Assembly (NCBI GenBank): GCA_023512375.1
Contig: JAILZS010000002.1
Coordinates: 2,659 to 66,658, forward strand
Source of the DNA: Bacillota bacterium
GTDB taxonomy: Bacteria > Bacillota > Sulfobacillia > JAJZYS01 > JAILZS01
Direction of reading: 5' to 3'
DNA: 64,000 nucleotides
Below the pieces are notes generated by a model. The model was not told the DNA's origin. It did no database searches and was given only the letters and a program-made list of their open reading frames with translations. Each line of letters begins with the position of its first letter. Position 1 is the stretch's first letter. Positions 43,300 to 64,000 of the stretch are shown in pieces. Position numbers and translations under genes: made by a program.

Positions 43300-43300
43300 G

Positions 43301-46408: not shown

Positions 46409-47382
46409 CGGCCGCGCGCCGCCGCGCCGCCGCCCTGGCCGCTGCGCTGGTCGTAGCGGCGGCGGGGTTCGCCCTTCTGCGCCGGCCCCCGGCGCGGCCG
46501 CCCCTCCCCTGCCCCCACCTGGCGGCCGTCCTCGCCGTACCGTCCCTGGAGGCGGCCCCCGTCCTCCTGGCGCGCCTCTCCCTGCCGGGCGGCGTCTGCC
46601 GCATCGCCGCCGCGGCGGAGGCGGCGGACACCGCCCCTCTCGCCGTGCTGCCGGGAGACGCCTTCCGCCCCGCCTCCGCCGCCCGCACCCGCTGGCTCCC
46701 GTTCCTGCTCGTGGCCCAGCGCGCCGCCTCCCTGCTCGTCGCGCGCGCCCCCGTGGCGCCGCACTTCCTGTGGCACTCCCTGTCGGGGCAGACGGTCGTC
46801 CTCTCGCCCGCGGCGGGCGACTTGGGGGGCGTCGTCGTGACGGCCATGGTGGCCGTGCACGCCGTCGACGGCGTCGCCCTGTTGCGCGGCCTGGGCGAGA
46901 GAGCCTTCGTCGCCGGCACGGGGGCCTACGCCGAGCTGCCCCTGTGGCCGGCCGAGGCCCTCCTCCTGGCCGGGCGCGCCCACCCGGCGGCCGACCTCGC
47001 CATCCAGGGCGGGCCCCTGCCCGCCGCCGTGCTCGCCGCCCGTCCCGCCTTCGCCCGCCGCCACCCGCGCCTTCTGGCCGCCATCGCCGTCGCCGTGTAC
47101 GGGGCCGAGTTGCGCCTGGACCGCCTCGGCGGCCGCCTGGCCGACGCCTGGCCGACGCCCCTTGCGCCCGCCGCCCGCCGCGCCCTGGCCGCCGCCCTGG
47201 CGCGCGCCCGCTACGCCGGCGTCTGGCCCTCGGACCCGCGCCTCGACGCCGCCCTGTTCACGCGCCTGGACGTTCTCCTGCAGGGGGCGGGCCTGGTCCC
47301 CGTCGGCCCGCCCCCCGCCGCCCTCGCCTGGCCGGCGGAGGCGGCCATGCGCCGCCTCGCCCCCGTCCCCCAGGCGGGCTAG
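46405..47382 (+). CDS. Hypothetical protein with N-terminal membrane anchor, translationally coupled to spoVB
   Basis: The GTG start overlaps the spoVB TGA (GTGA). It has an N-terminal TM (AAALAAALVVAAAGFALL), is about 325 aa, and has no motif I recognise. Confidence 0.35.
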   Translation: MTAARRRAAALAAALVVAAAGFALLRRPPARPPLPCPHLAAVLAVPSLEAAPVLLARLSLPGGVCRIAAAAEAADTAPLAVLPGDAFRPASAARTRWLPFLLVAQRAASLLVARAPVAPHFLWHSLSGQTVVLSPAAGDLGGVVVTAMVAVHAVDGVALLRGLGERAFVAGTGAYAELPLWPAEALLLAGRAHPAADLAIQGGPLPAAVLAARPAFARRHPRLLAAIAVAVYGAELRLDRLGGRLADAWPTPLAPAARRALAAALARARYAGVWPSDPRLDAALFTRLDVLLQGAGLVPVGPPPAALAWPAEAAMRRLAPVPQAG

Positions 47383-47383
47383 C

Positions 47384-47875
47384 TCAGCCGGTGCGGTGGG
47401 TCATGAGGAACACCGCCCGCGCCGCCTTCCCGGGCGTCCGCCGCACCATCCTTCCCTCGCGCACAAAGCCGCTGGCGAGATAACAGCGGATGGCGCGCCG
47501 GTTGTCGGCGCGCACGCGCAGGTACACCTCCTGCACCCCGAGGGAGGCGCGGGCGTACGCCACGGCCTGGCGCACGGCCTCGCGCCCGTACCCGCGGCCG
47601 CGGGCGTCGGCCTGCCCGATGGCGATGACGAGCTCGGCCCGCCCGTCCTCCGACACGTCCACCAAGGCGGCGCCACCGATGAGGGCGCCGTCGGAGGCGC
47701 GCTCGATGCCCAGCGTGACGGGCGCGTGCGGCACGCGCCCGCCCATCCATTCGGCCACCTCCGGGTCCCGCAGCCACCGCCGCCAGGCGGCGCGATGCTC
47801 GGCCGCGCTCAAGGGCCTCAGGCGCACCCGCGCCCCGCCCTCCGCCGCCTCGCCCTCCGCGCGCCCCTGTCCCAT
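47384..47875 (-). CDS. GNAT family N-acetyltransferase (RimJ/RimL-like)
   Basis: Acetyl-CoA binding motif (IAIGQADARGRGYGREAVRQAVAYA) and ...NRRAIRCYLASGF. The start was set to an internal ATG. Confidence 0.7.
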   Translation of the reverse strand: MGQGRAEGEAAEGGARVRLRPLSAAEHRAAWRRWLRDPEVAEWMGGRVPHAPVTLGIERASDGALIGGAALVDVSEDGRAELVIAIGQADARGRGYGREAVRQAVAYARASLGVQEVYLRVRADNRRAIRCYLASGFVREGRMVRRTPGKAARAVFLMTHRTG

Positions 47876-48042
47876 GCGCCATCGATTCGCCCGCCCCCGC
47901 CCGCCTACCTTGCGCCCGGGAGCCGGTAGATGTTGGGGGCGCACCGCCCGCCCGCGCTATACTGGGACCGGTCGCGCCGGCCGGGCCGGGCCGGCGCCGC
48001 GTCGAGCGGATCCTTCGCGCCGGGGGGATGGAAGTGGCGGCG

Positions 48043-48303
48043 ATGACCCTGACGGGCGACGCGCGCACGGTGATGGAGAGCATGGGACGGTTCATGAACC
48101 GCGACTACGCGCGCGCCGTGGGAGGGGAGGACCTCTTGCGCTGGACGGGGCTCGAGCCGCGCGCGCTGGCGGAGGCGGTGCGCGCCCTGGCCGAGCGTCC
48201 CCACCCATACGTGCGGGCGGTCTTCCACCCCGACGACCCGGACCGGCTGGTGGAGGTGCGCCTCACGGTCGACGGCGAGATGTACTGCCGCTCGCGCGAC
48301 TGA
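48043..48303 (+). CDS. Small hypothetical protein (~86 aa)
   Basis: MTLTGDARTVMESMGRFMNRDYARAVGGEDLLRWTGLEPRALAEAVRALAERPHPYVRAVFHPDDPDRLVEVRLTVDGEMYCRSRD, preceded by a TTGGGG-N19-TATACT promoter-like motif and convergent with lon. Confidence 0.35.
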   Translation: MTLTGDARTVMESMGRFMNRDYARAVGGEDLLRWTGLEPRALAEAVRALAERPHPYVRAVFHPDDPDRLVEVRLTVDGEMYCRSRD

Positions 48304-48321
48304 CGGGCAACAAGGGCGTCG

Positions 48322-50730
<2,409 letters not shown>

Positions 50731-50758
50731 CGCGTTCACCCCCCGGCGATTGGCGCCG

Positions 50759-50767
50759 ATTATAGCA
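50759..50767 (-). promoter_or_regulatory. Extended -10 element TGcTATAAT upstream of lon
   Basis: The minus strand reads GTGTGCTATAATCGG about 25 nt upstream of the proposed lon TTG start. No good -35 was found. Confidence 0.35.
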
Positions 50768-50842
50768 CACGCCAACGGCCGGCCCGGCGCAAGCACAGGC
50801 GTACCCCGCGCGGCGGGTCGACGCCCGCGGTCCTAGCGGAGG

Positions 50843-52579
50843 CTACGCCCCCGGCGTCACGCCCGTCGGTCCGTCCGCCCTCTCGGCGGCACCCGCCGCC
50901 GCCGCCTCCCCTGCCCGCGCACCGACGCCGCGTGCCGCGGCGGGGCGGCGCGAGGGCCGCGCACCGGCGGGCAACAGCGCCAGGTCCAGCACCTCCTGCA
51001 GCCGCCGCACCGCCACCACGCGGATGGGCAGGGTGCGGAAGCTCTCCTGCCAGTTCTCCTCCGGCACCAGCACCGTCTGCGCCCCGGCGGTGCGGGCCGC
51101 CTCCACCTTGGCCACCACCCCGCCTACGGGGCGGACGAGGCCGCGGATGGACACCTCGCCGGTCATCGCCACCCGGTTGTCCACCGGCCGGCCGGTGAGG
51201 GCGCTGTACACGGCGGTGGCGATGCTCACGCCCGCGCTCGGCCCGTCCACGGGCATGCCGCCCGGGAAGTTGATGTGCAGGTCGTAGCGCCGCGGGTCGA
51301 CACGCAGGTAGCGCCGGAGGACCGTCAGGACGTTGTCCACCGCCCCGAGCGCCATGGAGCGGCGGCGCACCACGTGGCCGGGGCGGCCCAGCTCCTCCTC
51401 CGCCACCAGGCCGGTGACCTCCAGCCGGCCGGGAAGGCGGGCGGCCGGCTGGGCGTACGCCTCCACCTCGAGCAGAAGCCCCATGTTCGGCCCGTACACG
51501 GCCAGGCCGTTGGCGACGCCCACTTGGGGCTCCGAGGCCACGCGGCGTTCGGGGCGGGGGGAGTAGCGGCACCGCTCCACCACCCATTCCACGTCCGCCG
51601 CCGAGGTGGCGTGGCGACCCTCGCTGATGGCCAAGCCCGCGGCGATCTGCACCAAGTTGACGGCCTCGCGCCCGTTGGTGGCAAAGCGGGCCACCACCTC
51701 GAGCGCGGCCTCGTCCAGGGGGACGCCCACCCGCTCCCCTGCCTGGCGGGCGATGCGCCGCACCTCTGCCGCGCTCAGGGGGCGGAAGAAGATCTCCACG
51801 CACCGGCTGCGGATGGCAGGCGGGATCTCCTCCGGCGAACGCGTGGTGGCCCCGATGAGGCGGAAGTCGGCCGGCAGGCCGTGCTCGAACACGTCCTGGA
51901 TGTGGGAGGGGATGTTCGGGTCTTCGGACGAGTAGTAGGCGCTTTCGAGGAAGACCTTGCGGTCCTCCAGCACCTTGAGGAGCTTGTTCATCTGCACGGG
52001 GTGAAGCTCGCCGATCTCGTCGATGAACAGGACGCCGCCGTGGGCCTTCGTCACCGCGCCCGCCTTGGGCTGGGGGATACCGGCCATGCCGAGAGGCCCC
52101 GCGCCCTGGTAGATGGGGTCGTGAACGCTACCGATCAGGGGGTCAGCGATCCCGCGCTCGTCGAAGCGGGCGGTGGTTGCGTCGATCTCCACGAACTTGG
52201 CGTCGGGGCGGAAGGGGGTGTTGGGCCCCCGCTTGGCCTCCTCCAGCACGAGGCGGGCGGCGGCGGTCTTGCCCACCCCCGGCGGCCCGTACACGAGCAC
52301 GTGCTGAGGGTTGGGACCGCACAGGGCGGCCCTCAGGGCCCGGATCCCCTCCTCCTGCCCGACCACCTCGGCGAAGCTTCTCGGGCGCGTGCGCTCCGAC
52401 AGGGGTTCGGTGAGGGAGATCTCGCGCAGGCGGCGCAGCTTCTCAAGCTCCTTGCGCGACTCCCGCTCCACGGCCGCCCGGCTCGCCTGCTGGCCGCGCA
52501 ACAGGTTCCAGAAGTACAGCCCGATCACGACGGCGAAGAAGAACTGGACAAACGTGAGCGCGCCGCCCGCCCAATCCAT
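50843..52579 (-). CDS. lonB: LonB-type ATP-dependent protease (sporulation protease LonB-like)
   Basis: N-terminal TM (ALTFVQFFFAVVIGLYFW), AAA+ (GPPGVGKTAAARL), Lon protease domain (DGPSAGV...K), about 578 aa. It lies between clpX and lon as in Bacillus. Confidence 0.8.
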   Translation of the reverse strand: MDWAGGALTFVQFFFAVVIGLYFWNLLRGQQASRAAVERESRKELEKLRRLREISLTEPLSERTRPRSFAEVVGQEEGIRALRAALCGPNPQHVLVYGPPGVGKTAAARLVLEEAKRGPNTPFRPDAKFVEIDATTARFDERGIADPLIGSVHDPIYQGAGPLGMAGIPQPKAGAVTKAHGGVLFIDEIGELHPVQMNKLLKVLEDRKVFLESAYYSSEDPNIPSHIQDVFEHGLPADFRLIGATTRSPEEIPPAIRSRCVEIFFRPLSAAEVRRIARQAGERVGVPLDEAALEVVARFATNGREAVNLVQIAAGLAISEGRHATSAADVEWVVERCRYSPRPERRVASEPQVGVANGLAVYGPNMGLLLEVEAYAQPAARLPGRLEVTGLVAEEELGRPGHVVRRRSMALGAVDNVLTVLRRYLRVDPRRYDLHINFPGGMPVDGPSAGVSIATAVYSALTGRPVDNRVAMTGEVSIRGLVRPVGGVVAKVEAARTAGAQTVLVPEENWQESFRTLPIRVVAVRRLQEVLDLALLPAGARPSRRPAAARGVGARAGEAAAAGAAERADGPTGVTPGA

Positions 52580-52667
52580 AGGCCGTCGCCTCCCCCGCAT
52601 ATGGCGAGGGTAGCTTCCCCATCGCGGCGTATCCTAATCGCCCCATGCCTTCCATCGGCCGATCCGC

Positions 52668-52955
52668 CTAGGACCCCACGTCCACGCGCCGGAGGCGATC
52701 CTCCCCAGCGGGCGTGAGGCGGTAGTGGCGCTGCGGGAGGCCGTTTCCGCCCCGCACCCACTCGGACTCCACCAGGCCCTCCGCCATGAGGCGCCCGAGG
52801 ACCTCGACGATCGTCACGTCGTACAGGAAGATGCCCCGCGTCTTGGCCGCCGTGGCCAGGTACTCCGTGGGGTGGGGACGGTCCCGCAGGAGGCGGAGGA
52901 GCGCCAGGTCGGCGCTCTGCCCGGTGGTGTGGATGCGGTCGGTCGCGGTCGCCAT
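52668..52955 (-). CDS. PadR-family transcriptional regulator
   Basis: 95 aa winged HTH (DLALLRLL...GYEL...[15 protein letters not shown]...[10 protein letters not shown]). RBS GGGGGAGAGGG. Confidence 0.6.
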
Positions 52956-52986
52956 CGCCCTCTCCCCCTACCGCCCGACTCGGGCC

Positions 52987-54255
<1,269 letters not shown>

Positions 54256-54304
54256 CTCCCCACCCCTCTTTCCGGCTGGCGCCGTGATCGGTCTTGGGGC
54301 GTGG

Positions 54305-54907
54305 TCAACGGCCGCCGGAGAGGGTGCGCGGCGTCAGCACCTCGTCGATGAGGCCATACGTGCGGGCCTCCTCGGGAGCCATCCAGTAGTCGCGCTCCAC
54401 GTCCTGCGCCACCTTTTCGAACGGCTGCCCGCTCGCCTCGGCCAGGATGCGGGTGGTGAGCTCCTTCTCCCGCAAGAGCTCCTTCATGGTGATCTCCACA
54501 TCGGTGAGCTTGCCGCCCAGGTTGCCCACCCACGGCTGGTGGATCATGACGCGGGAGTTCGGCAGGGCCTTGCGCTTACCCTTGGTACCCCCCGCCAGGA
54601 GAATGGCCGCCATGGACGCCGCCATGCCCACGCACACGGTCTCCACCTCGGCCCGGATGAAGCGCATCGTGTCGAAGATGCCCAGGCCGGCGTGCACGCT
54701 CCCCCCGGGGGAGTTGATGTACAGGTGCACGTCCTTCTCCGGATCGTCGCTGTCGAGGAAGAGGAGCTGGGCGATGACGACGTTGGCGACCTGGTCGTCG
54801 ATCTCCGTCCCGAGGAAGATGATGCGGTCCTTGAGCAACCGGCTGTAGATGTCGTACGCGCGCTCGCCGCGGTTGGTCTGCTCGATGACGTACGGGACCA
54901 CCGTCAC
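54305..54907 (-). CDS. clpP: ATP-dependent Clp protease proteolytic subunit ClpP
   Basis: About 200 aa ([23 protein letters not shown]..., [19 protein letters not shown], catalytic Ser/His context). GTG start behind GGAGAGAAGGGAGG; the track ORF is extended upstream. Confidence 0.95.
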
Positions 54908-54935
54908 CGCCTCCCTTCTCTCCGTTCTCCGAAGG

Positions 54936-56282
54936 TTACCCGGCTCCGTGGTCGCCGGACGCCGCCTCGGTCGCCTCCGCCTCGCCCTCGGGCGCCTCGC
55001 CCTCGCCCTCGTCCGCCGGGGCGTAGATGTCCGCCAAGAAGGCGAGGGCTTTCTCCCGCAGGAGCACGTCGCGGATGTAGGCGCGTTGGCCTCGGCTGAG
55101 GGTTCGCTGCCCATCCCTCCGCCCCTTCTCCGGTCGGCCCAGCAGGCGGTCCGCAGCGGCGGCGATCTCTCCCTCCAGGGGCTCGAGACCCTCCCGCTCG
55201 GCCAGCGCCTCCAGCACCATGTTGCGCTTGGCGCGGCGCTCGGCCGCCGGGCGCATCTCCTCCCGCAACGCCGCCTCGTCCTTGTTGGCGGCCGCCAGGT
55301 AGGCCTCCACGGGAACACCCTGCTGCCGCAGGCTGAGCGCGAACTCCTCCCACAGGATATCCGACTGGCGTTCCACCAATGGCTTGGGAACCGCGACCGC
55401 CACGCGGTCCACGAGCGCGTCGACGGCGGCGTCCAGGCGCGCCTCCCGCTCCCGCCGGCGCTCCTGCGCCTCCAGGTAGGCGCGCGCCTTCGTGCGCAGG
55501 TCGGCCACCGACTCCGCCCCCGCGTGCCGGGCCAAGGCGTCGTCGAGGGGCGGGAGTTCGCGCTCCACCACGCCCAGCACGCGGATGCGCGTCAGCGCCT
55601 CCTCGCCCGCGTGCGCGGGGGCGGTGGCGGGCACCGTCCACACCACCTCGCGCGTCTCGCCTACCGGCGATCCGTTCAGGGCGGCCGCCAGGCCGGCGAT
55701 GTCGCCGTCCCCCGCCTGCATGTCCAGGACGGTCCGGCGCGGTCCCTCGACCACCTCGCCCCCGATCTCGGTGGTCACCTCTGCGCGGACGAGCGACTGC
55801 TCCCCCACCCGGTCGGCCTCCCGCTCCCGGGCGTGCTGGCGCCGGTACTCCTCGAGGAAGGCGTCCACCGCCTGCTCGTCCACCTCGCGCCGCTCCACCT
55901 CCACCCGGAGGTCGCGCACGTCGCCCAGTTCGATCGGCGGCCGCACGGCCACCCTGGCCCTATAGGTGAGAGGCTGGCCCTCGACGATGGCCGGATCCCC
56001 CTCCAGGTCGGCGCTTCCCACCGGCCGAAGCCCCTCCTGCTCGACCGCCTCGTCGAACGTCTCCTCCACGAGCCGGCCGAGGGCTTCCTGCAGGATGGCG
56101 TCGCGTCCGAGGAAGGCTTCGACGATCGGGCGCGGCGCCTTGCCGCGGCGGAAGCCGGCGAAGGCATAGCGCTGACCCAGCCGGCGCACGGCCTCCTCGA
56201 CCGCGCGCTGGGCGCGTTCCGCCTCCACCTCCACCGTCACGAGCGCCTCGTCGGGTTGGGTCCGCTCCACCGTCACCTTCAC
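54936..56282 (-). CDS. tig: Trigger factor
   Basis: About 448 aa with a ribosome-binding N-domain ([20 protein letters not shown]...), a PPIase domain, and a C-domain. GTG start behind GGAGGG. Confidence 0.9.
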
Positions 56283-56333
56283 CGTTCGACCCTCCGTTTG
56301 GCCGCAAGCCCTTGCCGTACCGCGTCGTCCATA

Positions 56334-56376
56334 AAAAACGCCCCGGATGTCGGGCGCGCGACCCGCCGGGGGCATG
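56334..56376 (-). terminator. Hairpin plus T6 downstream of tRNA-Leu (putative rho-independent terminator of the tRNA operon)
   Basis: The minus strand reads ...CCCCGGCGGGTCGCGCGCCCGACATCCGGGGCGTTTTTTATGG immediately 3' of tRNA-Leu. Confidence 0.4.
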
Positions 56377-56461
56377 TGGTGCGGGCGGAGAGACTCGAAC
56401 TCTCACGAGCGCTGCTCATGGGATCCTAAGTCCCACGCGTCTGCCGTTCCGCCACGCCCGC
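56377..56461 (-). tRNA. tRNA-Leu (anticodon TAG), type II with long variable arm, CCA encoded
   Basis: Folded by hand: acceptor GCGGGCG/CGCCCGC, anticodon stem TGGGA/TCCCA, loop CTTAGGA, long variable arm, T-arm GAGAG-TTCGAGT-CTCTC, ACCA end. Confidence 0.85.
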
Positions 56462-56470
56462 GCGAACCTC

Positions 56471-56547
56471 TTGGTGGGCCATGATGGATTCGAACCATCG
56501 ACGCCCCGCTTAAAAGGCGGGCGCTCTAACCGCTGAGCTAATGGCCC
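56471..56547 (-). tRNA. tRNA-Lys (anticodon TTT), CCA encoded
   Basis: GGGCCATTAGCTCAGCGGTTAGAGCGCCCGCCTTTTAAGCGGGGCGTCGATGGTTCGAATCCATCATGGCCCACCA; anticodon loop CTTTTAA. Confidence 0.9.
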
Positions 56548-56618
56548 AAGGGGCCCGGACGACCCCCGGCGGAGGCGGTGCGCCGAGGCGCGCCCCAAAG
56601 ATCCGTAGACACAAAAAC

Positions 56619-56696
56619 TGGGGTGAATGAGGGGACTCGAACCCCCGACCCCCAGGGCCACAACCTGGTGCTCTAACCAACTGAGCTACATCCACC
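56619..56696 (-). tRNA. tRNA-His (anticodon GTG) with encoded G-1 and CCA
   Basis: G-1 pairs with discriminator C73; acceptor GTGGATG/CATTCAC; anticodon loop TTGTGGC. Confidence 0.9.
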
Positions 56697-56706
56697 GTGC
56701 ACGGCG

Positions 56707-56736
56707 AGTATAGCCATGCCGGCGCGGGGGTGTCAA
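56707..56736 (-). promoter_or_regulatory. SigA-type promoter TTGACA-N18-TATACT driving the tRNA-His/Lys/Leu cluster
   Basis: The minus strand reads TTCTTGACACCCCCGCGCCGGCATGGCTATACTCGCCGTGCAC, ending at the tRNA-His G-1. Confidence 0.6.
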
Positions 56737-56906
56737 GAAACCCGCACCCGGCCGGGATGAGTGCGAATCGTCGGACGGGAGGGTATCTTCTGCCGATGCG
56801 CGAACTGCGCCATGCCGCCCGGACGCGGCGGCACCCGGCAGCGAGCCCTCGACGCCCCGTCCCTGCCGCGCTCGCGCCCCACGACCACGCAAAGGGGGCG
56901 TTGTCC

Positions 56907-58442
56907 ATGCTGTTCCCCCATCGGCCGCGCGCGCTCCTGGCCGCCGCGGCTCTCTCCGTCGCCGCCCTCGCGGCGCCGACTGTGCCCGTCCAGGCCCACG
57001 CCCGCCTGCGCGCCTCTCCTCAGGGCGTCCTCAACGTCGGCCTCCAGTCGGACATCGTGACCATGGACCCCTCGCAGTCCTCGGCCTATGTGGACCGCCA
57101 AGTGATGATCAACATCTACGACACGTTGCTCCAGTTCAGCCCGCGCATGCAGGTGGAGCCCGACCTGGTCACGCGCTGGACGATCGGCGACGGCGGCCGC
57201 CGGTATACGCTCTACTTGCGCCACGGCGTCACGTTCCAGGACGGGACGCCGTTCGACGCCCAAGCGGTGATCTTCAACCTCGACCGCGACCGTCAGCCCT
57301 CCTCGGCCCGTGCCTCGACCCTCAAGCCCATCGTGTCGCTCCAGGCCGTCGGGCGTTACGAAGTGGTGATCCAGCTCTCGGCCCCGTACGCTCCCCTCCT
57401 GTCCGTGCTGGCTGGGCGCAGCGGCATGATGTGCTCGCCCGCCGCCGTGCAGCGGGAAGGGGCGAGCTACGGCTCCGACCCGGTGGGCACGGGGCCGTTC
57501 GAATTCGTCAAGTGGGTGCGCAACGACTACATCGAACTGCGGGCCAACCCCCACTACTGGCGCCCCGGCGTGCCCAAGGTGGCCGAGGTCGTCTACCATC
57601 CCATCCCGGACCCCACGACCGAGCTCAACGCCCTCAAGACGGGCGAGCTGCAGATCGTGGACACCCTGGCCGCCAAGGACCTGGCGTCGGCCAAGGCGGA
57701 CCCCGGCTTGCGCGTCTATGAGTCCCCCGGCCTCGGCTGGGTCGGCATCTACATCAACACGAAGGCGGCGCCTTTCAACAACCTCGACGTGCGCCGCGCC
57801 CTGCAGTACGCGATCAACCGGGCCGTGATCGACCGTGTCATCTACTACAACACGGCGACGGTGGCCTATACGCAGTTCCCGCCCGCCCAATTCGCCTACG
57901 ACCCCTCCCTCACCATCCCCTACAGCCCAGCCACCGCCCGCCAGCTCCTGGCCCAGGCCGGGTACGCCCACGGTCTCTCGTTCACCATGCAGGGCGACAA
58001 CGACCCGGTCACGCAGCAGGAGCTGCAGCTCATCCAGATCATGCTCAAGCAAGTCGGCATCGACATGAACATCCAGCTCCTCGACTTCGGCACGCTGCTC
58101 GGCAACGAGCTGAAGGAGAACTACCAGGCCATGGCGCTGGGTTGGAGCGGTCGCGTCGACCCAGACGAGAACTCCTACCAGTTCGACGTCACCGGCGGCA
58201 GCCTCAACCAGACCGGGTTCGGCAACGCCACGATCGACGGCTACCTGCTCAAGGCGCGCACGTACACGAGCGAGATCGTGCGCCGTTCGTACTACTGGGC
58301 CGCGGCCCGCCTGCTCGACTACTACTCGCCGTACGTGTTCATCGCCTTCCCGCCGGACTTCAAGGCCACCTCGACCCGGGTGCAAGGGTTCGTCCACTAC
58401 CCGGACGGCCTCATGCGCCTGTGGGACGTGAGCCTCGGCTAG
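56907..58442 (+). CDS. ABC transporter substrate-binding protein, family 5 (peptide/nickel)
   Basis: Signal peptide MLFPHRPRALLAAAALSVAALAAPTVPVQA plus SBP_bac_5 motifs (MDPSQSSAYVDRQVMINIYDTLL, GTGPFEFVKWVRNDYIELRANPHYWRPGVPK). ATG behind AAAGGGGG; the track ORF starts earlier at a GTG inside the tRNA promoter region. Confidence 0.85.
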   Translation: MLFPHRPRALLAAAALSVAALAAPTVPVQAHARLRASPQGVLNVGLQSDIVTMDPSQSSAYVDRQVMINIYDTLLQFSPRMQVEPDLVTRWTIGDGGRRYTLYLRHGVTFQDGTPFDAQAVIFNLDRDRQPSSARASTLKPIVSLQAVGRYEVVIQLSAPYAPLLSVLAGRSGMMCSPAAVQREGASYGSDPVGTGPFEFVKWVRNDYIELRANPHYWRPGVPKVAEVVYHPIPDPTTELNALKTGELQIVDTLAAKDLASAKADPGLRVYESPGLGWVGIYINTKAAPFNNLDVRRALQYAINRAVIDRVIYYNTATVAYTQFPPAQFAYDPSLTIPYSPATARQLLAQAGYAHGLSFTMQGDNDPVTQQELQLIQIMLKQVGIDMNIQLLDFGTLLGNELKENYQAMALGWSGRVDPDENSYQFDVTGGSLNQTGFGNATIDGYLLKARTYTSEIVRRSYYWAAARLLDYYSPYVFIAFPPDFKATSTRVQGFVHYPDGLMRLWDVSLG

Positions 58443-58517
58443 CGGGGCGCGTCCACCCCGGCCGCGCCGGGCGCCCGGCGCGGCCGGCGCGTCGCCCCAC
58501 GCCCCGAACGGGAGGGA

Positions 58518-59468
58518 ATGCCGGTGTTGACCTACGTCGCGCGCCGCCTTCTCCTTTCGGTGCCGGTGGTGCTGTTCGTCCTCGTCGGCGTCTTCCTCCT
58601 CATCCACCTCACGCCCGGCAACCCTGCCGCCATCATGCTGGGTGAGGAGGCGAGCCCCGCGGCCGTGGCCGCGCTGACGCGCAAGCTCGGGCTCGACCTG
58701 CCCTTGCCCGTGCAGTTCGCGCGCTACCTCTGGGCCGTAGTGCACGGCAACCTGGGGAGCTCGCTCCAGTCCGGCCAGCCGGTCACCCTCCTCATCGGCC
58801 AGGCCCTGCCGGTCACCCTGGAGCTGGCGGTCCTCGCCATCGCGGTGGCCGTCGCCGTCTCCATCCCCCTCGCCGCCGTCGCCGTCATCCACCGGGGCGG
58901 CGTCGTCGACTACGTCCTCCAGGTCCTTTCCCTGGTGGGCGTGGCGCTGCCGAATTTCTGGTACGGGCTCATCCTCATCGACCTGTTCGCCCTCACCTGG
59001 CCCATCCTGCCCGTCAACGGCTTTCAGCCCCTCTCGGCCGGCCTGGGCACCAACCTGCGCTACATGGTCCTGCCCACGGTCGTGCTCGCCACATTTCTCG
59101 TGTCGGTGGGCGCCAACGTCCTGCGCGAGGACCTCCTCGAAGCGGCGGCGGAGGACTTCATGCGCACCGCCCGGGCCAAGGGCCTGTCGCGCTCGGCCGC
59201 GGTGTGGCGGCACGCCCTGCGCAACGCCCTCCTCCCCTACCTGACCGTGATGGGTCTTCAGTTCGGCGGCCTCTTGGGCGGGGTGGTCATCACCGAGACG
59301 GTGTTCGGCGTACCGGGCATCGGCCGGCTCATCGTGAACGCCATCTTCAACCGCGACTTCCCACTCCTCCAGGGAGGCGTCCTCTTCTTCGCCGTCGTCG
59401 TGGTGTTGGTCAACCTCGCCACCGACCTCCTCTACGCCGTCATGGATCCGCGCGTCACCTACCGCTGA
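58518..59468 (+). CDS. ABC transporter permease (DppB/OppB family)
   Basis: 316 aa (LTYVARRLLLSVPVVLFVLVGVFLLIHLTPGNPAA..., LPYLTVMGLQFGGLLGGVVITETVFGVPGIGRL). Confidence 0.85.
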   Translation: MPVLTYVARRLLLSVPVVLFVLVGVFLLIHLTPGNPAAIMLGEEASPAAVAALTRKLGLDLPLPVQFARYLWAVVHGNLGSSLQSGQPVTLLIGQALPVTLELAVLAIAVAVAVSIPLAAVAVIHRGGVVDYVLQVLSLVGVALPNFWYGLILIDLFALTWPILPVNGFQPLSAGLGTNLRYMVLPTVVLATFLVSVGANVLREDLLEAAAEDFMRTARAKGLSRSAAVWRHALRNALLPYLTVMGLQFGGLLGGVVITETVFGVPGIGRLIVNAIFNRDFPLLQGGVLFFAVVVVLVNLATDLLYAVMDPRVTYR

Positions 59469-59469
59469 C

Positions 59470-59830
59470 GGGAGGCGATGCCCTTGAACGAGCCCCTCGC
59501 CGCCCCCTCGGGCCCCGCACCGGAGCCCCTCCCGGCGGACCCGTCCCGGCCCCCCCCCGGCGGCCCCCGCGGCGCCCCCCCCCCCCCCCACCAATGGGTA
59601 GGCGGCGCCCAGGGCCGCCGCAACGCCCACCCCCCCCACCCCAGGGGCCGCCTCCCCAAAGCGTAACCCCCCACCAACCGCCACGCCGGCGGCGCCGCCG
59701 CCCGCGCCCCGCGCCGCCCCCGCGGGCCCCGCCCCGGCGCCCCCCCCGGCGCCCCCGCCCCGGCCGCCGGGCGGCGGCCGCCTCGGCTTCGCCCATGCCC
59801 CCCTCCTATGGGTAGGCGGCGCCCTGGTCC
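59470..59830. repeat. C-rich/Pro-codon low-complexity tract with 17-bp direct repeat ATGGGTAGGCGGCGCCC (59597 and 59808) and C10 homopolymer
   Basis: Seen directly: poly-C runs (cccccccccc at about 59581), a duplicated 17-mer, and a 360-bp stretch coding mostly Pro/Ala/Gly in all frames. Confidence 0.6.
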
Positions 59831-59934
59831 TCCTCATCGCCCTCACCGCCCTGGCGGCGCCCCTCCTCGCCCCCGCCGGGCCGACCGCCGCCGACCTGTC
59901 CGCCATCCTTTCGCCCCCCGGGCACGGCCACCTC

Positions 59935-60594
59935 ATGGGCACCGACGACCTGGGGCGGGATGTGTGGGCACGGGTCGTGTGGGGAGCCGGCATCACCCTC
60001 CCCGCCGGCCTCGAAGCCACTCTCCTGGCCCTCCTCCTGGGCGCGCCCCTCGGCCTCGTGGCGGGCTACTTCGGCGGGGTGGCGGGCGAGGTCATCCTGC
60101 GCGCCACCGACGTCCTCCTCGCCTTCCCCAGCCTGGTGCTGGCGCTCGCCATGGCCGCCTTCCTCGGCCCGGGGGAGGGCAACGCCATCCTCGCCATCGG
60201 CATCGTCTCCGCCCCCGCCTTCGTGCGCGTGGCGCGGGCCAGCGTCCTCCCCCTGCGCCAGCGCGAGTTCGTGGAGGCGGCTCGCAGCCTGGGAGCGGGG
60301 GACGGGCGCATCCTCCTCCGGCACGTGCTGCCCAACGCCTGGGGACCGGTGGGCGTCCTCGCCTTCCTCACCGTCGGCAGCGCCATCCTCGCCGAGACCA
60401 GCCTCAGCTTCCTCGGCCTCGGGACCCAGCCGCCCGCCCCCAGCTGGGGAGCCATGGTGCAAGAGGGAGCCGACTACCTCTCGCAGGCGCCGTGGATCTC
60501 CCTCTATCCCGGCCTCGCCATCCTCGTCACGGTGGTCTCCTTCAACCTCCTGGGCAACGGCCTGCGCCAGGCCCTCGCCCCCAGGCGCGGCTGA
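59935..60594 (+). CDS. ABC transporter permease (DppC/OppC family), intact C-terminal 219 aa; N-terminus (TM1) lies in the disrupted C-rich tract upstream (possible pseudogene or assembly error)
   Basis: MGTDDLGRDVWARVVWG...AETSLSFLGLGTQPPAPSWGAMV is the DppC signature. The in-frame upstream sequence ...LLWVGGALVLLIALTALAAPLLAPAGPTAADLS encodes TM1 but has no start codon before a TAG at 59599. An alternative frame from ATG 59478 (MPLNEPLAAP...HQWVGGA) ends at 59666. Confidence 0.6.
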   Translation: MGTDDLGRDVWARVVWGAGITLPAGLEATLLALLLGAPLGLVAGYFGGVAGEVILRATDVLLAFPSLVLALAMAAFLGPGEGNAILAIGIVSAPAFVRVARASVLPLRQREFVEAARSLGAGDGRILLRHVLPNAWGPVGVLAFLTVGSAILAETSLSFLGLGTQPPAPSWGAMVQEGADYLSQAPWISLYPGLAILVTVVSFNLLGNGLRQALAPRRG

Positions 60595-60613
60595 GGCCGC
60601 GGCGGCCCGCCGC

Positions 60614-60955
60614 CTATCGCAAGGCGCGGCGCACGGCACGCGCCCACAGGGCCGCCGCGCCCTCCTGCCCCAGGCTGTGGGCGACGCGCCGCAGCCAGCC
60701 GGGCAGGCGCAGCGTGAGGTAGAGGAGGGCGAGGGAGGAAACGAGGGCGGCCGGGGCGGAGCCGCTGGCCGGCAGGTCGAGCGCCGCCACCTGGAACACG
60801 ATGAGCAGCACCACCTGCACGGGCTGCAGGAGAAGCACGGCGGCGAACTCCGCCGCCCACGCCCTCGCCACCGCCTGGGCGGCGGGATGGACGACGCACA
60901 CGAGGGCGAGCGGCGCCAGGGCGGCCAGCACGAAAGCCTGAGAACAACGTTTCAT
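60614..60955 (-). CDS. Hypothetical small hydrophobic membrane protein (113 aa)
   Basis: MKRCSQAFVLAALAPLALVCVVHP... has three predicted TM segments. The start codon sits about 10 nt after a TGgCATAAT extended -10-like motif (possibly leaderless). Confidence 0.35.
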   Translation of the reverse strand: MKRCSQAFVLAALAPLALVCVVHPAAQAVARAWAAEFAAVLLLQPVQVVLLIVFQVAALDLPASGSAPAALVSSLALLYLTLRLPGWLRRVAHSLGQEGAAALWARAVRRALR

Positions 60956-61102
60956 CGGCCGGTTCCATTATGCCAGATGCGGCAACGCGGTGTCTGGTTG
61001 CAGCCAAGGTCCCGAGCATGGCCCGCCCCAGGGTGGGGTGGGACCGGGCCTGCCGAAGCTTTTCCTCAGGAGGGGATTGTGCTATAACCGTGCGGCTCTG
61101 CG

Positions 61103-61270
61103 ATGGAAGAACGGGAGCAGCACGAGCACACCGCGCCTTCTGAGCTGCAGCGGAACAGGGTCAGCGCAAGCCACTACTGCCCCATTTGTTCACGGCCGCT
61201 CGAGGCGCGCCACTGCAAGCTGGTGTGTTCCATCTGCGGTTACTACATGTCCTGTTCGGATTTTTACTGA
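61103..61270 (+). CDS. Small zinc-ribbon protein (55 aa; CPIC...HC...CSIC), not in ORF track
   Basis: ATG GAA GAA CGG ... TAC TGA translates to MEEREQHEHTAPSELQRNRVSASHYCPICSRPLEARHCKLVCSICGYYMSCSDFY. Two CxxC pairs 15 aa apart; preceded by TGTGCTATAAC (extended -10); 72 nt upstream of the STAS gene. Confidence 0.4.
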   Translation: MEEREQHEHTAPSELQRNRVSASHYCPICSRPLEARHCKLVCSICGYYMSCSDFY

Positions 61271-61342
61271 AACAGAATCGAGGTGCCGCTGGCCCGGGCG
61301 AGCCGGGAGCGCGGCCCGTTGTCCTGTGGAGAAGGAGGAAAC

Positions 61343-61687
61343 GTGGCACTCAGGATCACCAACCGGGAAGTGGATGGCGTCACCGTGGTGGAATTGGATG
61401 GACGGATTGTACTGGGCGAGGAAAGCAACTCGCTGCGCGAGACCGTCAAATCGCTGCTTGCCAACAACAAGCGCAAGATTGTTCTCGATATGCGCAATGT
61501 GACGTACATTGACAGCACAGGCCTAGGCACGTTGGTGGCCAGCTACCAGAGCGCGCGCAATCAGGGCGCTACGTTGAAGCTGGCCAATCTGGGATCGAAA
61601 TTCCAAGAAATCCTGCAGGTGACCAAACTGATCACTGTGTTTGACGTCTACGACAACGAAACTGCGGCCATCAAAAGTTTCCAGTAG
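61343..61687 (+). CDS. STAS-domain anti-sigma-factor antagonist (SpoIIAA/RsbV family)
   Basis: VALRITNREVDGVTVVELDGRIVLGEESNSLRETVKSLL...VTYIDSTGLGTLVASYQSARNQGATLKLANL. GTG start behind GAAGGAGGAAAC; no cognate anti-sigma kinase or sigma factor nearby. Confidence 0.8.
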   Translation: MALRITNREVDGVTVVELDGRIVLGEESNSLRETVKSLLANNKRKIVLDMRNVTYIDSTGLGTLVASYQSARNQGATLKLANLGSKFQEILQVTKLITVFDVYDNETAAIKSFQ

Positions 61688-61797
61688 CCCTCGCCAACCT
61701 CGCTGGCCGGCGCACAGGCTGGACGGGCGCGGCTTGCGTCAGCGGCGGGAACACAGCCGCCGGCATGGCGGGTGCCGTGCCCAGGGGGCGAAGACGC

Positions 61798-63126
61798 TCA
61801 TTCCTCCAGCCGGTACATTGTCAGTCCGCTGAGCAATTTCGGGTAGAAGTCGGTGGATTTCTGCGGCAGGACGTTCCCGCTGAGGGCAATCTCCATCACC
61901 TGTTCCACGCGCACGGGATTCAACAGGCAGGCCAGTTGTGCGCTGCCGTTTTCGACCGCCGCAATGGCCTTGTCCATCTCTCGTTCATAGGTGAGATAGG
62001 ACTCATCCCGGACCGCTGCGGGGGTGATGCCCAGCCCTTTTTCGAGCACCAGGCGATGCAACACCATCACGTCGAGCCGGCGCTGGGCCGGAGTGGCGTC
62101 GGGAATCAGTTCATCCAAGTTCACGTTGGGCCGAAGGACGAAGAGGAACAACCCCGCCCCGGCCGCACAGATGCCGATGGTGGTGCGGGTGGCGCCACGC
62201 TGCATCAGGTCTTTGCGGAACTGCTCCCGTTCCTGCTGCGGGTGGGCGGAGGCGGGATAGGCGTACCAGTCAAAGTACGGCTCCAACTGCTTGCGAAAGC
62301 GAGTGAACTCGAACCCGGGCAGATTGGCAATCACGCGGTGCGTGGGCAGGATGGTGATTCCCTCGCTGTCGGCATTGAAAAACGTCATCATGGCGAACTC
62401 GTAGGGCGCGTGGGGCACGGGCGCCGCAGCGGCCTGGCGACGCTCGTTGCGATAGGCGAGCGCGGTTTCGTAGCGGTGGTGGCCATCGGCGATGACCAGC
62501 TTTTTGTCGGCCATTTCGTTGACGAAGCGCTGGATCGTCTCTTCGTCCACGATGGGCCAAAGGCGATGGACAACGCCATATTCATCGCGCACTTCGACCG
62601 GGGCGGGTACGCGGGAGACGCTTTCGAGCAGTTGATCCACACGGCGGTGCGGATCGGAAAACAACAGGAAAAGCTGCCCGGTCTGGACACGGGTCGTGCG
62701 CAGCAGCTCGAGCCGGTCGGCTTTCGGAGCTGCCAGGGTCTGCTCGTGCCGGTGCACGACGCCGGCTTCGTAGTCTTCCACCCGGCCCAGCGCGATGAAT
62801 CCCCGGCGATGGCGAAGCACATCGGTACCGGGCACGACGTATTCCTGGAAATAGGCATAGAGAGCCGGGGCAGGATCGCGCACCAGGATCCCCTCTGCGA
62901 TCCAGCTTTCGAGCGTCGCCGCGGCGCGTGTATAGACGTTGGTGCGTTCGTTGTCGCCGGGTTCGGGCCGGCCTTTTTCGATGCGCACCAGGTTGTAGGG
63001 ATCGAGTGCGTAGTACCGCGCCTGCATCTCCGGCGTGATTTTGTCGTAGGGCTGCGTCAGCACGCGCTCCAGATTCAGGCGGCTGGCGTTGTAGCGATAG
63101 GCGGCAAATGCGCGGATCTCAGCCAT
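61798..63126 (-). CDS. DUF1015 family protein (uncharacterised conserved protein)
   Basis: 442 aa, MAEIRAFAAYRYNASRLNLERVLTQPYDKITPEMQARYYALDPYNLVRIEKG... with the typical DUF1015 N-terminal pattern (F-x-A-x-R-Y-N, PYD-I). Assigned from memory of the family, not from a search. Confidence 0.5.
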   Translation of the reverse strand: MAEIRAFAAYRYNASRLNLERVLTQPYDKITPEMQARYYALDPYNLVRIEKGRPEPGDNERTNVYTRAAATLESWIAEGILVRDPAPALYAYFQEYVVPGTDVLRHRRGFIALGRVEDYEAGVVHRHEQTLAAPKADRLELLRTTRVQTGQLFLLFSDPHRRVDQLLESVSRVPAPVEVRDEYGVVHRLWPIVDEETIQRFVNEMADKKLVIADGHHRYETALAYRNERRQAAAAPVPHAPYEFAMMTFFNADSEGITILPTHRVIANLPGFEFTRFRKQLEPYFDWYAYPASAHPQQEREQFRKDLMQRGATRTTIGICAAGAGLFLFVLRPNVNLDELIPDATPAQRRLDVMVLHRLVLEKGLGITPAAVRDESYLTYEREMDKAIAAVENGSAQLACLLNPVRVEQVMEIALSGNVLPQKSTDFYPKLLSGLTMYRLEE

Positions 63127-63229
63127 TCCGGCCTCACTGCGTGATCGTGCACCAGCCCGCTATTCTAGCAATTCACCAACAGACGCCCAAGAAGACAACG
63201 CGACTGCGCTAGAATGAGCATCGGGAGCG

Positions 63230-63919
63230 ATGTCGATGCAGGAACCCCACAAGGATTTCCGCGACGTGCGGCTGCTGATTTTTGATCTCGACGGCACGCT
63301 GATCGATTCCAAGCTCGACCTGGCCCTTTCGGTCAATGCGGTGCGCGCCTGGATGGGCCGGCCGCCGCTGGAGCCGGAACGCATCTACAGCTACATCGGC
63401 CAGGGGGCGCCGATGCTGATTCGCCGCGCGCTGGAAGAAGGCGTCAGCGAAGAAGAGATCGAGCGGGGACTGAAATACTTCCTCGAGTACTACCACGCCC
63501 ACATGCTGGACAACACAGTCCCCTACCCGGGTGTTCGCGAAGGGTTGGAACAGTTGGCGCAGCGGCCGAACACCCTGCTGACGGTCTACACGAACAAGCC
63601 GGAACGGTTCAGCCGCCAAATTCTAGAAGGCCTCGACCTGGCCCGATTTTTCCGGCAGGTGTACGGAGGCAATCGCTTCGAACGAAAGAAGCCGGATCCG
63701 ATGGGCGTCGAGGCGCTGCTGCGCGAATTCCAGTGCGCGCCGCACGAGGCCATGATGGTCGGCGACAGCGAAATCGACGTGCTGACCGCACGCAAGGCCG
63801 GCATCTGGTGCGCCGGCGTCACCTACGGACTCGGCGCCGAACGACTGCGCGAGCATCCGCCCGACCTGCTGCTCGATTCGCTGTGCGATCTCCCCGCTCG
63901 ACTTGCTGGCCGCCCCTGA
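63230..63919 (+). CDS. gph: HAD-superfamily hydrolase (phosphoglycolate phosphatase-like)
   Basis: Motif I LLIFDLDGTLIDS, motif II TVYTNKP, motif III/IV ...KKPDP...MVGDSEIDVLTARKAGI. The start is possibly the second ATG at 63236. Confidence 0.75.
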   Translation: MSMQEPHKDFRDVRLLIFDLDGTLIDSKLDLALSVNAVRAWMGRPPLEPERIYSYIGQGAPMLIRRALEEGVSEEEIERGLKYFLEYYHAHMLDNTVPYPGVREGLEQLAQRPNTLLTVYTNKPERFSRQILEGLDLARFFRQVYGGNRFERKKPDPMGVEALLREFQCAPHEAMMVGDSEIDVLTARKAGIWCAGVTYGLGAERLREHPPDLLLDSLCDLPARLAGRP

Positions 63920-64000
63920 CGGGAGGGCGCCGGCAAACCCACGCTAGTCCGCGGAGGAATGCTGCCGGTACCACGCCCAGGTGCGACGGAGTCCTTCCTC

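What the first reader, a model, noticed from the sequence alone, without database searches (positions are those of the whole stretch)
60960..64000. Abrupt compositional break: last ~3 kb has ~60% GC and different codon usage (island or chimeric join)
Up to about 60.95 kb the sequence is about 75% GC with almost exclusively G/C third codon positions. From about 60.96 kb onward GC falls to roughly 58-62%, and A/T-ending codons (AAA, GAA, TAT, GAT, TTT) become frequent. This tail holds the zinc-ribbon ORF, STAS, DUF1015 and HAD genes. The switch happens within a few tens of bp, just after a small membrane-protein gene. That pattern fits either a recent horizontally acquired segment or a mis-join of contigs from two organisms, as can happen in a metagenome assembly. 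No integrase, tRNA or direct repeat flanks the junction.
Basis: seen in the sequence. Interest (0 to 1): 0.65.

Follow-up and report, generated by a model that had tools for sequence, protein, structure and literature searches.

The report
Chimeric MAG contig: Bacillota joined to Terriglobia
The abrupt GC drop is real, but it marks the point where a public metagenome-assembled contig switches from one bacterium's chromosome (Bacillota, 75% GC) to that of an unrelated bacterium (Terriglobia, 62% GC), most likely an assembly or library artefact and not a biological island.

Summary
Body GC is 0.754 with gene GC3 of 0.82-0.96. The tail has GC 0.623 and GC3 0.72-0.80. The tetranucleotide signature of the tail correlates with the body at r = 0.31 (z = -9.3). 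The maximum-likelihood change point is at 60926.

The tail (60921-64000) is colinear at 84-90% nucleotide identity with five independent ~63% GC Terriglobia contigs. The body is 93.5% identical to independent 74% GC JGI contigs of a Bacillota relative.

Both sets of relatives run straight through the breakpoint into their own genes. The window instead fuses the first 7 codons of a Terriglobia secreted-protein gene to the last ~100 codons of a Bacillota TrbL-like gene. The fusion is in frame, across an 18-nt stretch (60917-60934) that encodes F-V-L-A-A-L in both.

The join is present in the deposited 105,127-bp NCBI contig (accessions MCL6594749-764). The foreign part continues at least 4.5 kb past the window in Terriglobia gene order.

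The tail shows no amelioration. There are no mobility genes, repeats or adjacent tRNA, and no independent assembly carries the junction.

Verdict: an inter-genome chimeric contig (confidence about 0.85). A very recent genuine inter-phylum transfer (about 0.1) cannot be excluded without reads.

The parts
1..60916 (.). Bacillota ('Firmicutes bacterium' MAG) chromosomal body, GC 0.754, gene GC3 about 0.9+
   Evidence: Composition. Window 46325-57265 is 93.4-93.6% nt identical to JGI contigs L089/L090 (GC 0.74), and the same-strain Logan contigs L092/L093 are 99.4-99.9% identical. Proteins carry accessions MCL6594749-754 on the 105127-bp contig.
48322..56402 (-). Core block lonA - lonB-like - PadR - clpX - clpP - trigger factor, used as the taxonomic anchor of the body
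   Evidence: Pfam hits. NCBI names LonB, ClpX and trigger factor, labelled [Firmicutes/Bacillota bacterium]. Same gene order in L089/L090/L091.
56377..56695 (-). tRNA-Leu, tRNA-Lys and tRNA-His cluster, 4.2 kb left of the junction and not adjacent to it
   Evidence: ARAGORN.
56907..60594 (+). Peptide-type ABC operon (SBP_bac_5 plus two BPD_transp_1 permeases) with body-like GC3 of 0.91-0.94. It is native to the Bacillota side but absent from relatives L089/L090.
   Evidence: Pfam, GC3, SBP = MCL6594754.1. L089 carries only remnants of both operon ends around an Uma2 gene.
60614..60916 (-). 3' fragment (last ~100 codons) of a Bacillota TrbL_4-like membrane-protein gene, lacking ~160 N-terminal codons
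   Evidence: Pfam TrbL_4 profile positions 167-258 of 276. Full-length homologues are 256-264 aa, and the fragment aligns to their residues ~163-258. L089 has the intact 260-aa gene, and window-L089 homology ends at 60934.
60917..60934 (-). Crossover interval: 18 nt (TTC GTG CTG GCC GCC CTG = F V L A A L) compatible with both parental genes, i.e. imperfect microhomology
   Evidence: Three-way codon and DNA alignments. Terriglobia blastn homology begins at 60921-60926 and Bacillota homology ends at 60934. GC change point at 60926.
60935..60955 (-). First 7 codons (MKRCSQA, A/T-ending codons) of a Terriglobia secreted-protein gene. Its homologues are 243-259 aa in relatives, and the rest of the gene is missing here.
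   Evidence: Alignment A1 and translation of L001:12177-12956.
60614..60955 (-). Hybrid 113-aa ORF created by the join, deposited as 'hypothetical protein K6V73_00925', MCL6594757.1
   Evidence: The sequence is known only from the NCBI record. No gene with this product is on record in the ENA/JGI/Logan index.
60956..61102 (.). Terriglobia intergenic region between divergent genes, conserved with relatives (e.g. TGCCGCATCTGGCATAAT)
   Evidence: Alignment A1.
61103..61270 (+). 55-aa zinc-ribbon-like small ORF (two CxxC pairs), conserved in Terriglobia relatives and apparently unannotated in the deposited record
   Evidence: tblastn 62-69% identity over all 55 residues in L001, L002, L084, L086 and L087. 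No accession number lies between 757 and 758.
61343..61687 (+). STAS-domain protein (anti-sigma-factor-antagonist type), MCL6594758.1
   Evidence: Pfam STAS. Its 90% cluster is shared with Terriglobia MAG protein MCL6566841.1.
61798..63126 (-). DUF1015 protein, MCL6594759.1
   Evidence: Pfam. 100% hit P0001. Relatives at 97%, 94%, 93% and 91% aa identity on Terriglobia/JGI contigs.
63230..63919 (+). HAD-IA hydrolase (phosphoglycolate-phosphatase-like), MCL6594760.1, annotated from the second Met at 63266
   Evidence: Pfam. P0143 is identical from the second Met.
63944..64000 (-). 3' end (last 18 codons plus stop) of an NAD-dependent epimerase gene that runs off the window, the next gene in Terriglobia synteny
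   Evidence: The translation ...EEGLRRTWAWYRQH... matches the C-terminus of the L084 epimerase.

Best explanation
The window is part of a chimeric contig in a public MAG. About 61 kb of a high-GC Bacillota chromosome is joined at 60917-60937 to chromosome of an unrelated Terriglobia (Acidobacteriota) bacterium from the same sample series. The join runs through a short Leu/Ala-rich coding stretch that looks alike in both genomes: a transmembrane helix of a TrbL-like gene and the signal peptide of a secreted protein. It fuses the two gene fragments in frame. Shown: two-organism origin, exact breakpoint, truncation of both genes, presence of the join in the deposited record, continuation of the foreign part beyond the window, and absence of amelioration. 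Inferred: that the join arose in vitro or in silico (a template-switch or ligation chimera in the library, or a mis-join during assembly or merging) and not inside a cell.
For: (1) Two lineages. The tail at 60921-64000 is colinear with Terriglobia contigs: L084 at 89.5%, L085 at 90.4%, and L001-3 and L087 at 83.6-84.2% nt, all at GC 0.62-0.64. The cluster-mates are named Acidobacteriia/Terriglobia. The tail's tetranucleotide signature matches non-homologous parts of those contigs (r = 0.85) but not the body (r = 0.31, z = -9.3). The body is 93.5% identical to L089/L090 (GC 0.74) and carries tig-clpP-clpX-lonB-lonA.
(2) Both native continuations exist elsewhere. Terriglobia relatives go on into a 243/259-aa gene, cation efflux and CMD. 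Bacillota relatives go on through full-length TrbL (260 aa), T4SS_pilin, SDR, DUF3243 and YajQ.
(3) Both genes are cut at the join and form a hybrid ORF.
(4) The join is in the deposited 105127-bp contig, with consecutive accessions 749-764. The foreign part continues at least 4.5 kb past the window in Terriglobia order HAD-[3 genes]-TauE.
(5) No amelioration. Private substitutions number 103 (tail) and 99 (sister L084). AT>GC:GC>AT is 33:53 vs 28:60 (p = 0.43), and GC3 equals that of the orthologues.
(6) There is no integrase, flanking repeat or adjacent tRNA. The foreign genes are housekeeping or EPS genes in donor synteny.
(7) The junction 60-mer is absent from genome contigs and metagenome contigs, and the hybrid protein is known only from the NCBI record.
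(8) Relatives of both parents come from numerically adjacent JGI samples (3300054986, 3300054988, 3300054730), and a Terriglobia MAG has accessions in the same MCL65... series. This suggests co-occurrence.
Against: No reads could be mapped, so coverage and spanning-pair support are unknown. The microhomology visible between the parental proxies is imperfect and only about 10-17 nt. That is shorter than the k-1 overlap a de Bruijn assembler normally needs, and it is equally typical of illegitimate recombination in vivo. The junction lies in a locally variable region of the Bacillota genome: a TrbL/T4SS-pilin module, an ABC-operon/Uma2 indel relative to L089, and a tRNA cluster 4.2 kb away. Misassemblies are described as relatively rare compared with mis-binning (PMC8201837). 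The Bacillota relatives showing the native context are only 93.5% identical, so they are another species-level lineage. The far end of the foreign segment was not seen.
Confidence: 0.85

Rival explanations
1. Genuine, very recent inter-phylum horizontal transfer. At least 7.7 kb of Terriglobia chromosomal DNA integrated into the Bacillota chromosome by microhomology-mediated illegitimate recombination inside the TrbL-like gene.
For: The junction has short microhomology and an in-frame fusion, as illegitimate recombination produces. It lies in a variable region carrying conjugation-type genes (T4SS_pilin plus TrbL in relatives), an ABC-operon/Uma2 indel and a nearby tRNA cluster. The join is present in the deposited contig. 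All tail genes are intact.
Against: There is no amelioration at all on the tail's private branch, even though the host GC3 is about 0.94. There is no integrase, transposase or repeats. The cargo is ordinary housekeeping and EPS genes in unbroken donor synteny and extends beyond the window. A donor gene is also truncated at the junction. The junction is not found in any other assembly. A second junction back into host DNA was not seen.
Confidence: 0.1
2. Native compositional heterogeneity: the tail belongs to the same genome and simply has lower GC, for example weakly expressed or relaxed-selection genes.
For: Per-kb GC of the body itself varies between 0.65 and 0.81.
Against: GC3 is uniformly 0.9 or higher in the low-GC stretches of the body. 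The tail is 84-90% nt identical, including its intergenic DNA, to Terriglobia contigs. The tetranucleotide z-score is -9.3.
Confidence: 0.01
3. Artefact of how the 64-kb window was built, i.e. two separate contigs of the MAG concatenated by the scanning pipeline.
For: The switch occurs within a few bases.
Against: Proteins from both sides are recorded on one contig of 105127 bp with consecutive accession numbers. The hybrid ORF itself is deposited as MCL6594757.1 / K6V73_00925.
Confidence: 0.01

Closest known systems
Inter-genome chimeric contig (misassembly) in metagenome-assembled genomes, as defined in the GUNC paper (PMC8201837)
   Same: Genomic fragments from two sources are joined in one contig. 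Each side has a homogeneous but different lineage assignment (Bacillota vs Terriglobia). The result is mislabelled proteins in a MAG.
   Different: The join is not at a conserved repeat (rRNA, IS element or tRNA), where such chimeras are usually expected. It lies at a short, imperfect, Leu/Ala-coding microhomology inside two unrelated genes. The step that produced it (library, assembler or contig merging) is unknown.
Genomic island acquired by horizontal transfer
   Same: An abrupt compositional and codon-usage break, with a foreign taxonomic affinity for the segment.
   Different: There is no integrase or recombinase, no flanking direct repeats and no tRNA at the boundary. The cargo is donor core-chromosome synteny and not accessory genes. 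A donor gene is truncated at the boundary. There is no amelioration. The second boundary was not observed.
Microhomology-mediated illegitimate recombination / homology-facilitated illegitimate recombination during natural transformation (from general knowledge)
   Same: A junction at a few to about 15 nt of shared sequence that fuses unrelated genes.
   Different: There is no evidence of a homologous anchor segment. It is an inter-phylum event involving at least 7.7 kb, with no population or independent-assembly support.

Membership tests
Inter-genome chimeric contig | The two sides have different, internally consistent taxonomic and compositional identity | tested here: met
   The tail matches Terriglobia contigs at 84-90% nt identity and tetranucleotide r = 0.85. 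The body matches Bacillota contigs at 93.5% nt identity. Tail vs body gives r = 0.31.
Inter-genome chimeric contig | Each parental sequence continues differently across the breakpoint in independent assemblies | tested here: met
   Terriglobia: L001, L002, L003, L084, L086 and L087. Bacillota: L089 and L090. The proxies are 84-93% identical to the window, so they are not the same strains.
Inter-genome chimeric contig | The junction is not reproduced in independent assemblies | tested here: met
   The junction 60-mer is absent from genome contigs and metagenome contigs. The hybrid protein is known only from the NCBI record. The same-strain Logan contigs L092 and L093 do not reach the junction, so this test has limited power.
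Inter-genome chimeric contig | Coverage discontinuity and/or lack of spanning reads at the junction | not testable with these tools
   No read data or mapping tool is available. Runs SRR15214121 and SRR15214123 contain the Bacillota strain.
Horizontally acquired genomic island | Compositional deviation from the host | tested here: met
Horizontally acquired genomic island | Bounded on both sides by host DNA | tested here: inconclusive
   The window ends inside the foreign segment. Accession order shows it continues at least 4.5 kb further, to TauE MCL6594764.1. Attempts to probe further failed or were ambiguous.
Horizontally acquired genomic island | Integration signature: tRNA or target-site direct repeats at the boundary | tested here: not met
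   The nearest tRNAs are 4.2 kb away. No flanking repeats were found.
Horizontally acquired genomic island | Mobility genes (integrase, transposase or recombinase) in or next to the segment | tested here: not met
   The visible genes are a Zn-ribbon ORF, STAS, DUF1015, HAD and epimerase. Downstream genes inferred from synteny are DUF3108, SIS and TauE. Only a truncated host TrbL-like gene abuts the segment.
Horizontally acquired genomic island | Some amelioration towards host composition, if the transfer is not extremely recent | tested here: not met
   The polarised substitution spectrum and GC3 are indistinguishable from the Terriglobia sister lineage.
Pfam TrbL_4 (PF19597), for the left-hand gene fragment | Score above the gathering threshold, and full-length coverage of the profile | tested here: inconclusive
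   The score is 27.5 bits against a cut-off of 27, and only profile positions 167-258 of 276 are covered. Intact homologues in L088 and L089 do hit TrbL_4/TrbL_3. The window therefore holds a C-terminal fragment of a family member.

The most novel reading that the evidence does not exclude
The join is biological. A Bacillota population has very recently integrated at least 7.7 kb of Terriglobia core-chromosome DNA (STAS, DUF1015, HAD, epimerase ... TauE) by microhomology-mediated illegitimate recombination inside a TrbL-like gene, and was caught before any amelioration or gene decay.
Probability: 0.1. Interest if true: 0.6.

Novelty: not a real feature. Interest (0 to 1): 0.12.

Why it matters
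The biological interest is low, but there is practical value. A public NCBI MAG contig (105,127 bp, locus-tag prefix K6V73, 'Firmicutes/Bacillota bacterium') very probably contains Terriglobia DNA from about this window's position 60.93 kb onward. At least the proteins MCL6594758-MCL6594764 are then labelled with the wrong phylum in nr. MCL6594757.1 would be an artefactual hybrid protein. Such entries can create false signals of inter-phylum gene transfer, distort taxonomic profiling and inflate protein-family ranges. The case also shows how a chimeric join can be diagnosed without reads, by recovering both parental contexts from independent assemblies and localising the crossover to a few bases. 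If the join were biological instead, it would be a rare snapshot of very recent inter-phylum chromosomal transfer.

Tried and rejected
(1) Retrieving the source contig itself failed. Exact-protein look-ups for DUF1015, the hybrid ORF and P0001 found nothing on record. The junction 60-mer is absent from genome contigs and metagenome contigs.

(2) I tried to measure how far the foreign segment runs. The relatives' 777-aa glycosyltransferase, which lies about 16-18 kb beyond the window end, gave no hit on the 105127-bp contig. This is ambiguous, because EPS clusters are variable and the contig or the segment may end sooner. A 4.2-kaa concatenated query timed out. A 1.5-kaa concatenation returned nothing, not even self-hits, so that was a method failure and not evidence.

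(4) The genome-contig scan with the junction-adjacent permease found only distant relatives, 55% identity or less, from mixed phyla. It was not useful for synteny.

(5) The metagenome scan with the TrbL-like fragment found no relative.

(6) Same-strain Logan contigs L092 and L093 are 99.4-99.9% identical to the window, but they stop short of the junction or run away from it.

(7) I rejected 'missing ABC ATPase genes' as evidence of truncation, because the other Dpp-type operon at 0.7-4.2 kb also lacks adjacent ATPases.

(8) I rejected the Logan presence/absence contrast as evidence. Exact body proteins were in Logan for 2 of 4 tested, and exact tail or hybrid proteins for 0 of 5. The numbers are too small.

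(9) Literature searches for the sample, run and locus-tag identifiers found nothing.
Full report
OBSERVATION. The compositional break is real. The window averages 74.8% GC. Positions 1-60916 are 75.4% GC and 60938-64000 are 62.3%. Raw GC fluctuates within the body, from 0.647 to 0.813 per kb, so GC alone is not decisive, but third-codon-position GC is. In 300-nt windows the best codon phase stays at 0.92-0.98 up to about 60.9 kb, including the lower-GC stretches at 53-55 and 57-59 kb. After that it never exceeds about 0.85. Well-called body genes have GC3 0.82-0.96, and the tail genes have 0.73-0.79. A/T-ending two-fold codons rise from 6.9% to 37.6% (p = 2e-38). The tetranucleotide-usage signature of the tail correlates with the body at r = 0.31. 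Body 3-kb windows correlate with the rest of the body at 0.81 +/- 0.054 (minimum 0.63), which puts the tail at z = -9.3. A maximum-likelihood single change point falls at 60926.

WHAT THE TWO SIDES ARE. The tail (60921-64000) aligns colinearly, coding and intergenic DNA alike, to several independent contigs. These are L084 (GCA_053485435.1) at 89.5% nt, L085 (JGI 3300054986) at 90.4%, L001 (GCA_037440845.1) and Logan L002/L003 at 83.6%, and L087 (JGI 3300038958) at 84.2%. All have GC 0.62-0.64. Cluster-mates of the tail proteins are named Acidobacteriia/Terriglobia bacterium, and more distant hits are Candidatus Acidoferrales. The tail's tetranucleotide signature matches the non-homologous parts of those contigs (r = 0.85). 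The body carries tRNAs - trigger factor - ClpP - ClpX - PadR - LonB-like - LonA. From general knowledge, this arrangement is typical of Bacillota. The body is 93.4-93.6% nt identical over 46325-57265 to JGI contigs L089/L090 (GC 0.74) and about 80% identical to L091. NCBI labels the proteins Firmicutes/Bacillota bacterium.

ANATOMY OF THE JUNCTION. The 113-aa ORF at 60614-60955 (minus strand) is a hybrid. Its ATG, the upstream intergenic region and its first 7 codons (MKRCSQA, with A/T-ending codons) are homologous to the start of a 243/259-aa secreted hypothetical protein of the Terriglobia relatives, MKRFSPFFLLAAL.... From codon 14 onward (APLALVCVVHPAAQ...) it is nearly identical to the C-terminal 100 residues of the intact 260-aa TrbL-like protein of L089. 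Full-length homologues are 256-264 aa and align to the fragment at their residues ~163-258. Pfam TrbL_4 matches only profile positions 167-258 of 276. Codons 8-13 (TTC GTG CTG GCC GCC CTG, F-V-L-A-A-L, window 60917-60934) fit both parents. The Bacillota proxy reads TTC GTG CTC GCC GCC CTG, and the Terriglobia proxies read TTC CTG CTG GCT GCA TTG or similar. Bacillota homology ends at 60934, and Terriglobia homology begins at 60921-60926. So two unrelated genes are each truncated and fused in frame across a short, imperfect microhomology. That microhomology encodes a hydrophobic Leu/Ala stretch: a TM helix on one side and a signal peptide on the other.

NATIVE CONTEXTS. In all Terriglobia relatives the order is epimerase - HAD - DUF1015 - STAS - (Zn-ribbon ORF) - 243/259-aa gene - cation efflux - .... 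In the Bacillota relatives it is YajQ - DUF3243 - SDR - T4SS_pilin - TrbL - Uma2 - tRNAs - tig - clpP - clpX - PadR - lonB - lonA - GNAT. Each parent therefore continues with its own genes through the point where the window switches.

THE JOIN IS IN THE PUBLIC RECORD AND THE FOREIGN PART GOES ON. Exact look-ups place LonB (MCL6594749), ClpX (751), trigger factor (753), SBP (754), the hybrid ORF (757, K6V73_00925), STAS (758), DUF1015 (759) and HAD (760) on one 105,127-bp contig. The join is therefore not an artefact of window construction. A TauE protein, MCL6594764.1, sits on the same contig and clusters at 90% or more with Terriglobia TauE. The three intervening accession numbers fit the relatives' epimerase - DUF3108 - SIS. 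The foreign DNA therefore extends at least about 4.5 kb past the window, for a total of at least 7.7 kb, in donor gene order.

CHIMERA OR TRANSFER? Six observations favour an artefact. (i) Both junction genes are truncated. (ii) There is no integrase, repeat or adjacent tRNA. (iii) The foreign genes are housekeeping or EPS genes in unbroken donor synteny. (iv) There is no amelioration. With L001/L087 as outgroup, the tail and its sister L084 have 103 and 99 private substitutions. Their AT>GC:GC>AT ratios are 33:53 and 28:60 (p = 0.43), and GC3 equals that of the orthologues, although the putative host has GC3 of about 0.94. (v) No other assembly has the junction. (vi) Relatives of both parents come from neighbouring JGI sample IDs, and a Terriglobia MAG has accessions in the same series, which suggests that both organisms were in the sequenced material. 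Four points count against certainty. No reads could be examined. The visible microhomology (about 10-17 nt, imperfect) is shorter than a typical de Bruijn overlap and is also what illegitimate recombination leaves. The junction lies in a locally variable region, with a TrbL/pilin module, an ABC-operon/Uma2 indel against L089 and tRNAs 4.2 kb away. Misassembly is considered rarer than mis-binning (PMC8201837). I put the chimera at about 0.85 and genuine recent transfer at about 0.10.

MECHANISM (inferred). Two routes are plausible. A chimeric library molecule, formed by template switching at the shared TTC-sTG-CTG-GCC-GCC-like stretch, or a chimeric long read, could have bridged two contig ends. 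Alternatively, an assembler or contig-merging step could have accepted the short shared GC-rich, codon-phased k-mer where both genomes had low coverage. Leu/Ala-rich hydrophobic segments encoded by GC-rich codons are where two unrelated high-GC genomes are most likely to share a k-mer. That would also explain why the fusion is in frame.

COMPARISON WITH KNOWN. The case matches the definition of a chimeric contig in MAGs (PMC8201837). It fails three tested hallmarks of a genomic island: an integration signature, mobility genes and amelioration. A fourth hallmark, a second boundary, remains undetermined.

WHAT FAILED. The source contig could not be fetched. Probing further along the foreign segment was negative or ambiguous or technically failed. 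The permease scan and the TrbL-fragment scan gave no close loci. Same-strain Logan contigs did not reach the junction. Literature searches on the identifiers were empty.

VERDICT. It is not a biological feature of interest, but it is a useful flag for a contaminated public record.

Noticed in passing
window 61103-61270 (+); L084 6061-6225, L001 11868-12032, L087 20302-20466 (minus strand in those loci): A 55-aa zinc-ribbon-like ORF upstream of STAS is conserved in all Terriglobia relatives (62-69% identity, with an almost invariant YCPxCSRxLExRxC[KR]LVCxxCGYYMSCSDFY core). No gene is called there in L001/L084. It has no accession in the source record and no Pfam hit. It is probably a real, unannotated small protein co-located with the STAS anti-sigma-antagonist gene.
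   Followed up: partly
window 57265-60498 vs L089/L090 8048-9077: The SBP-permease-permease operon next to the junction is absent from the 93.5%-identical Bacillota relatives. They carry an Uma2-family gene instead, yet keep remnants homologous to both ends of the operon (window 56.7-57.27 kb and 60.50-60.61 kb). The stretch between the tRNA cluster and the TrbL gene is therefore an indel hot spot in this lineage.
   Followed up: partly
L089/L090 6902-7931; L088 1273-2314; absent in L091: A two-gene T4SS_pilin (80 aa) plus TrbL_3/TrbL_4 (260 aa) module sits in a fixed chromosomal slot between an SDR gene and tig in the Bacillota relatives, with no other conjugation genes nearby. A more distant relative (L091) lacks it. 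Its function as an isolated pair is unclear.
   Followed up: no
window 59469-59935: The spacer or N-terminal extension between the two permease genes is 84% GC, with local 300-nt windows up to 0.887. In the permease frame it encodes a Pro/Ala/Gly-rich low-complexity stretch. It contains an imperfect 164-nt direct repeat (59474-59637 and 59688-59851, 77% identical).
   Followed up: no
P0135 (MCL6594764.1, beyond the window) vs L001 5501-6386, L086 13932-14700, L084 74-466: The TauE/SafE gene is intact (255 aa) on the source contig. In several Terriglobia relatives it is called as two overlapping ORFs (127 aa plus 130/169 aa). This suggests a frameshift or a programmed or erroneous split in those assemblies.
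   Followed up: no
window 60614-64000 and the source contig beyond it: There is a database consequence. NCBI nr proteins MCL6594758.1 (STAS), 759 (DUF1015), 760 (HAD) and 764 (TauE), and probably 761-763, are labelled Firmicutes/Bacillota bacterium although they are of Terriglobia type. MCL6594757.1 is a hybrid of two genes.
   Followed up: yes
window 721-4233 (-): A second Dpp/Opp-type operon (SBP_bac_5 plus permeases) also lacks adjacent ATPase genes. Orphan SBP-permease operons therefore seem normal in this genome.
   Followed up: partly
window 1-720 (-); L091 1-1772: A BNR/Sortilin-Vps10-repeat protein lies at the left edge of the window, and a homologous family hit occurs in relative L091 (1068 aa). 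This is a large secreted beta-propeller protein in a high-GC Bacillota lineage. It was not examined further.
   Followed up: no
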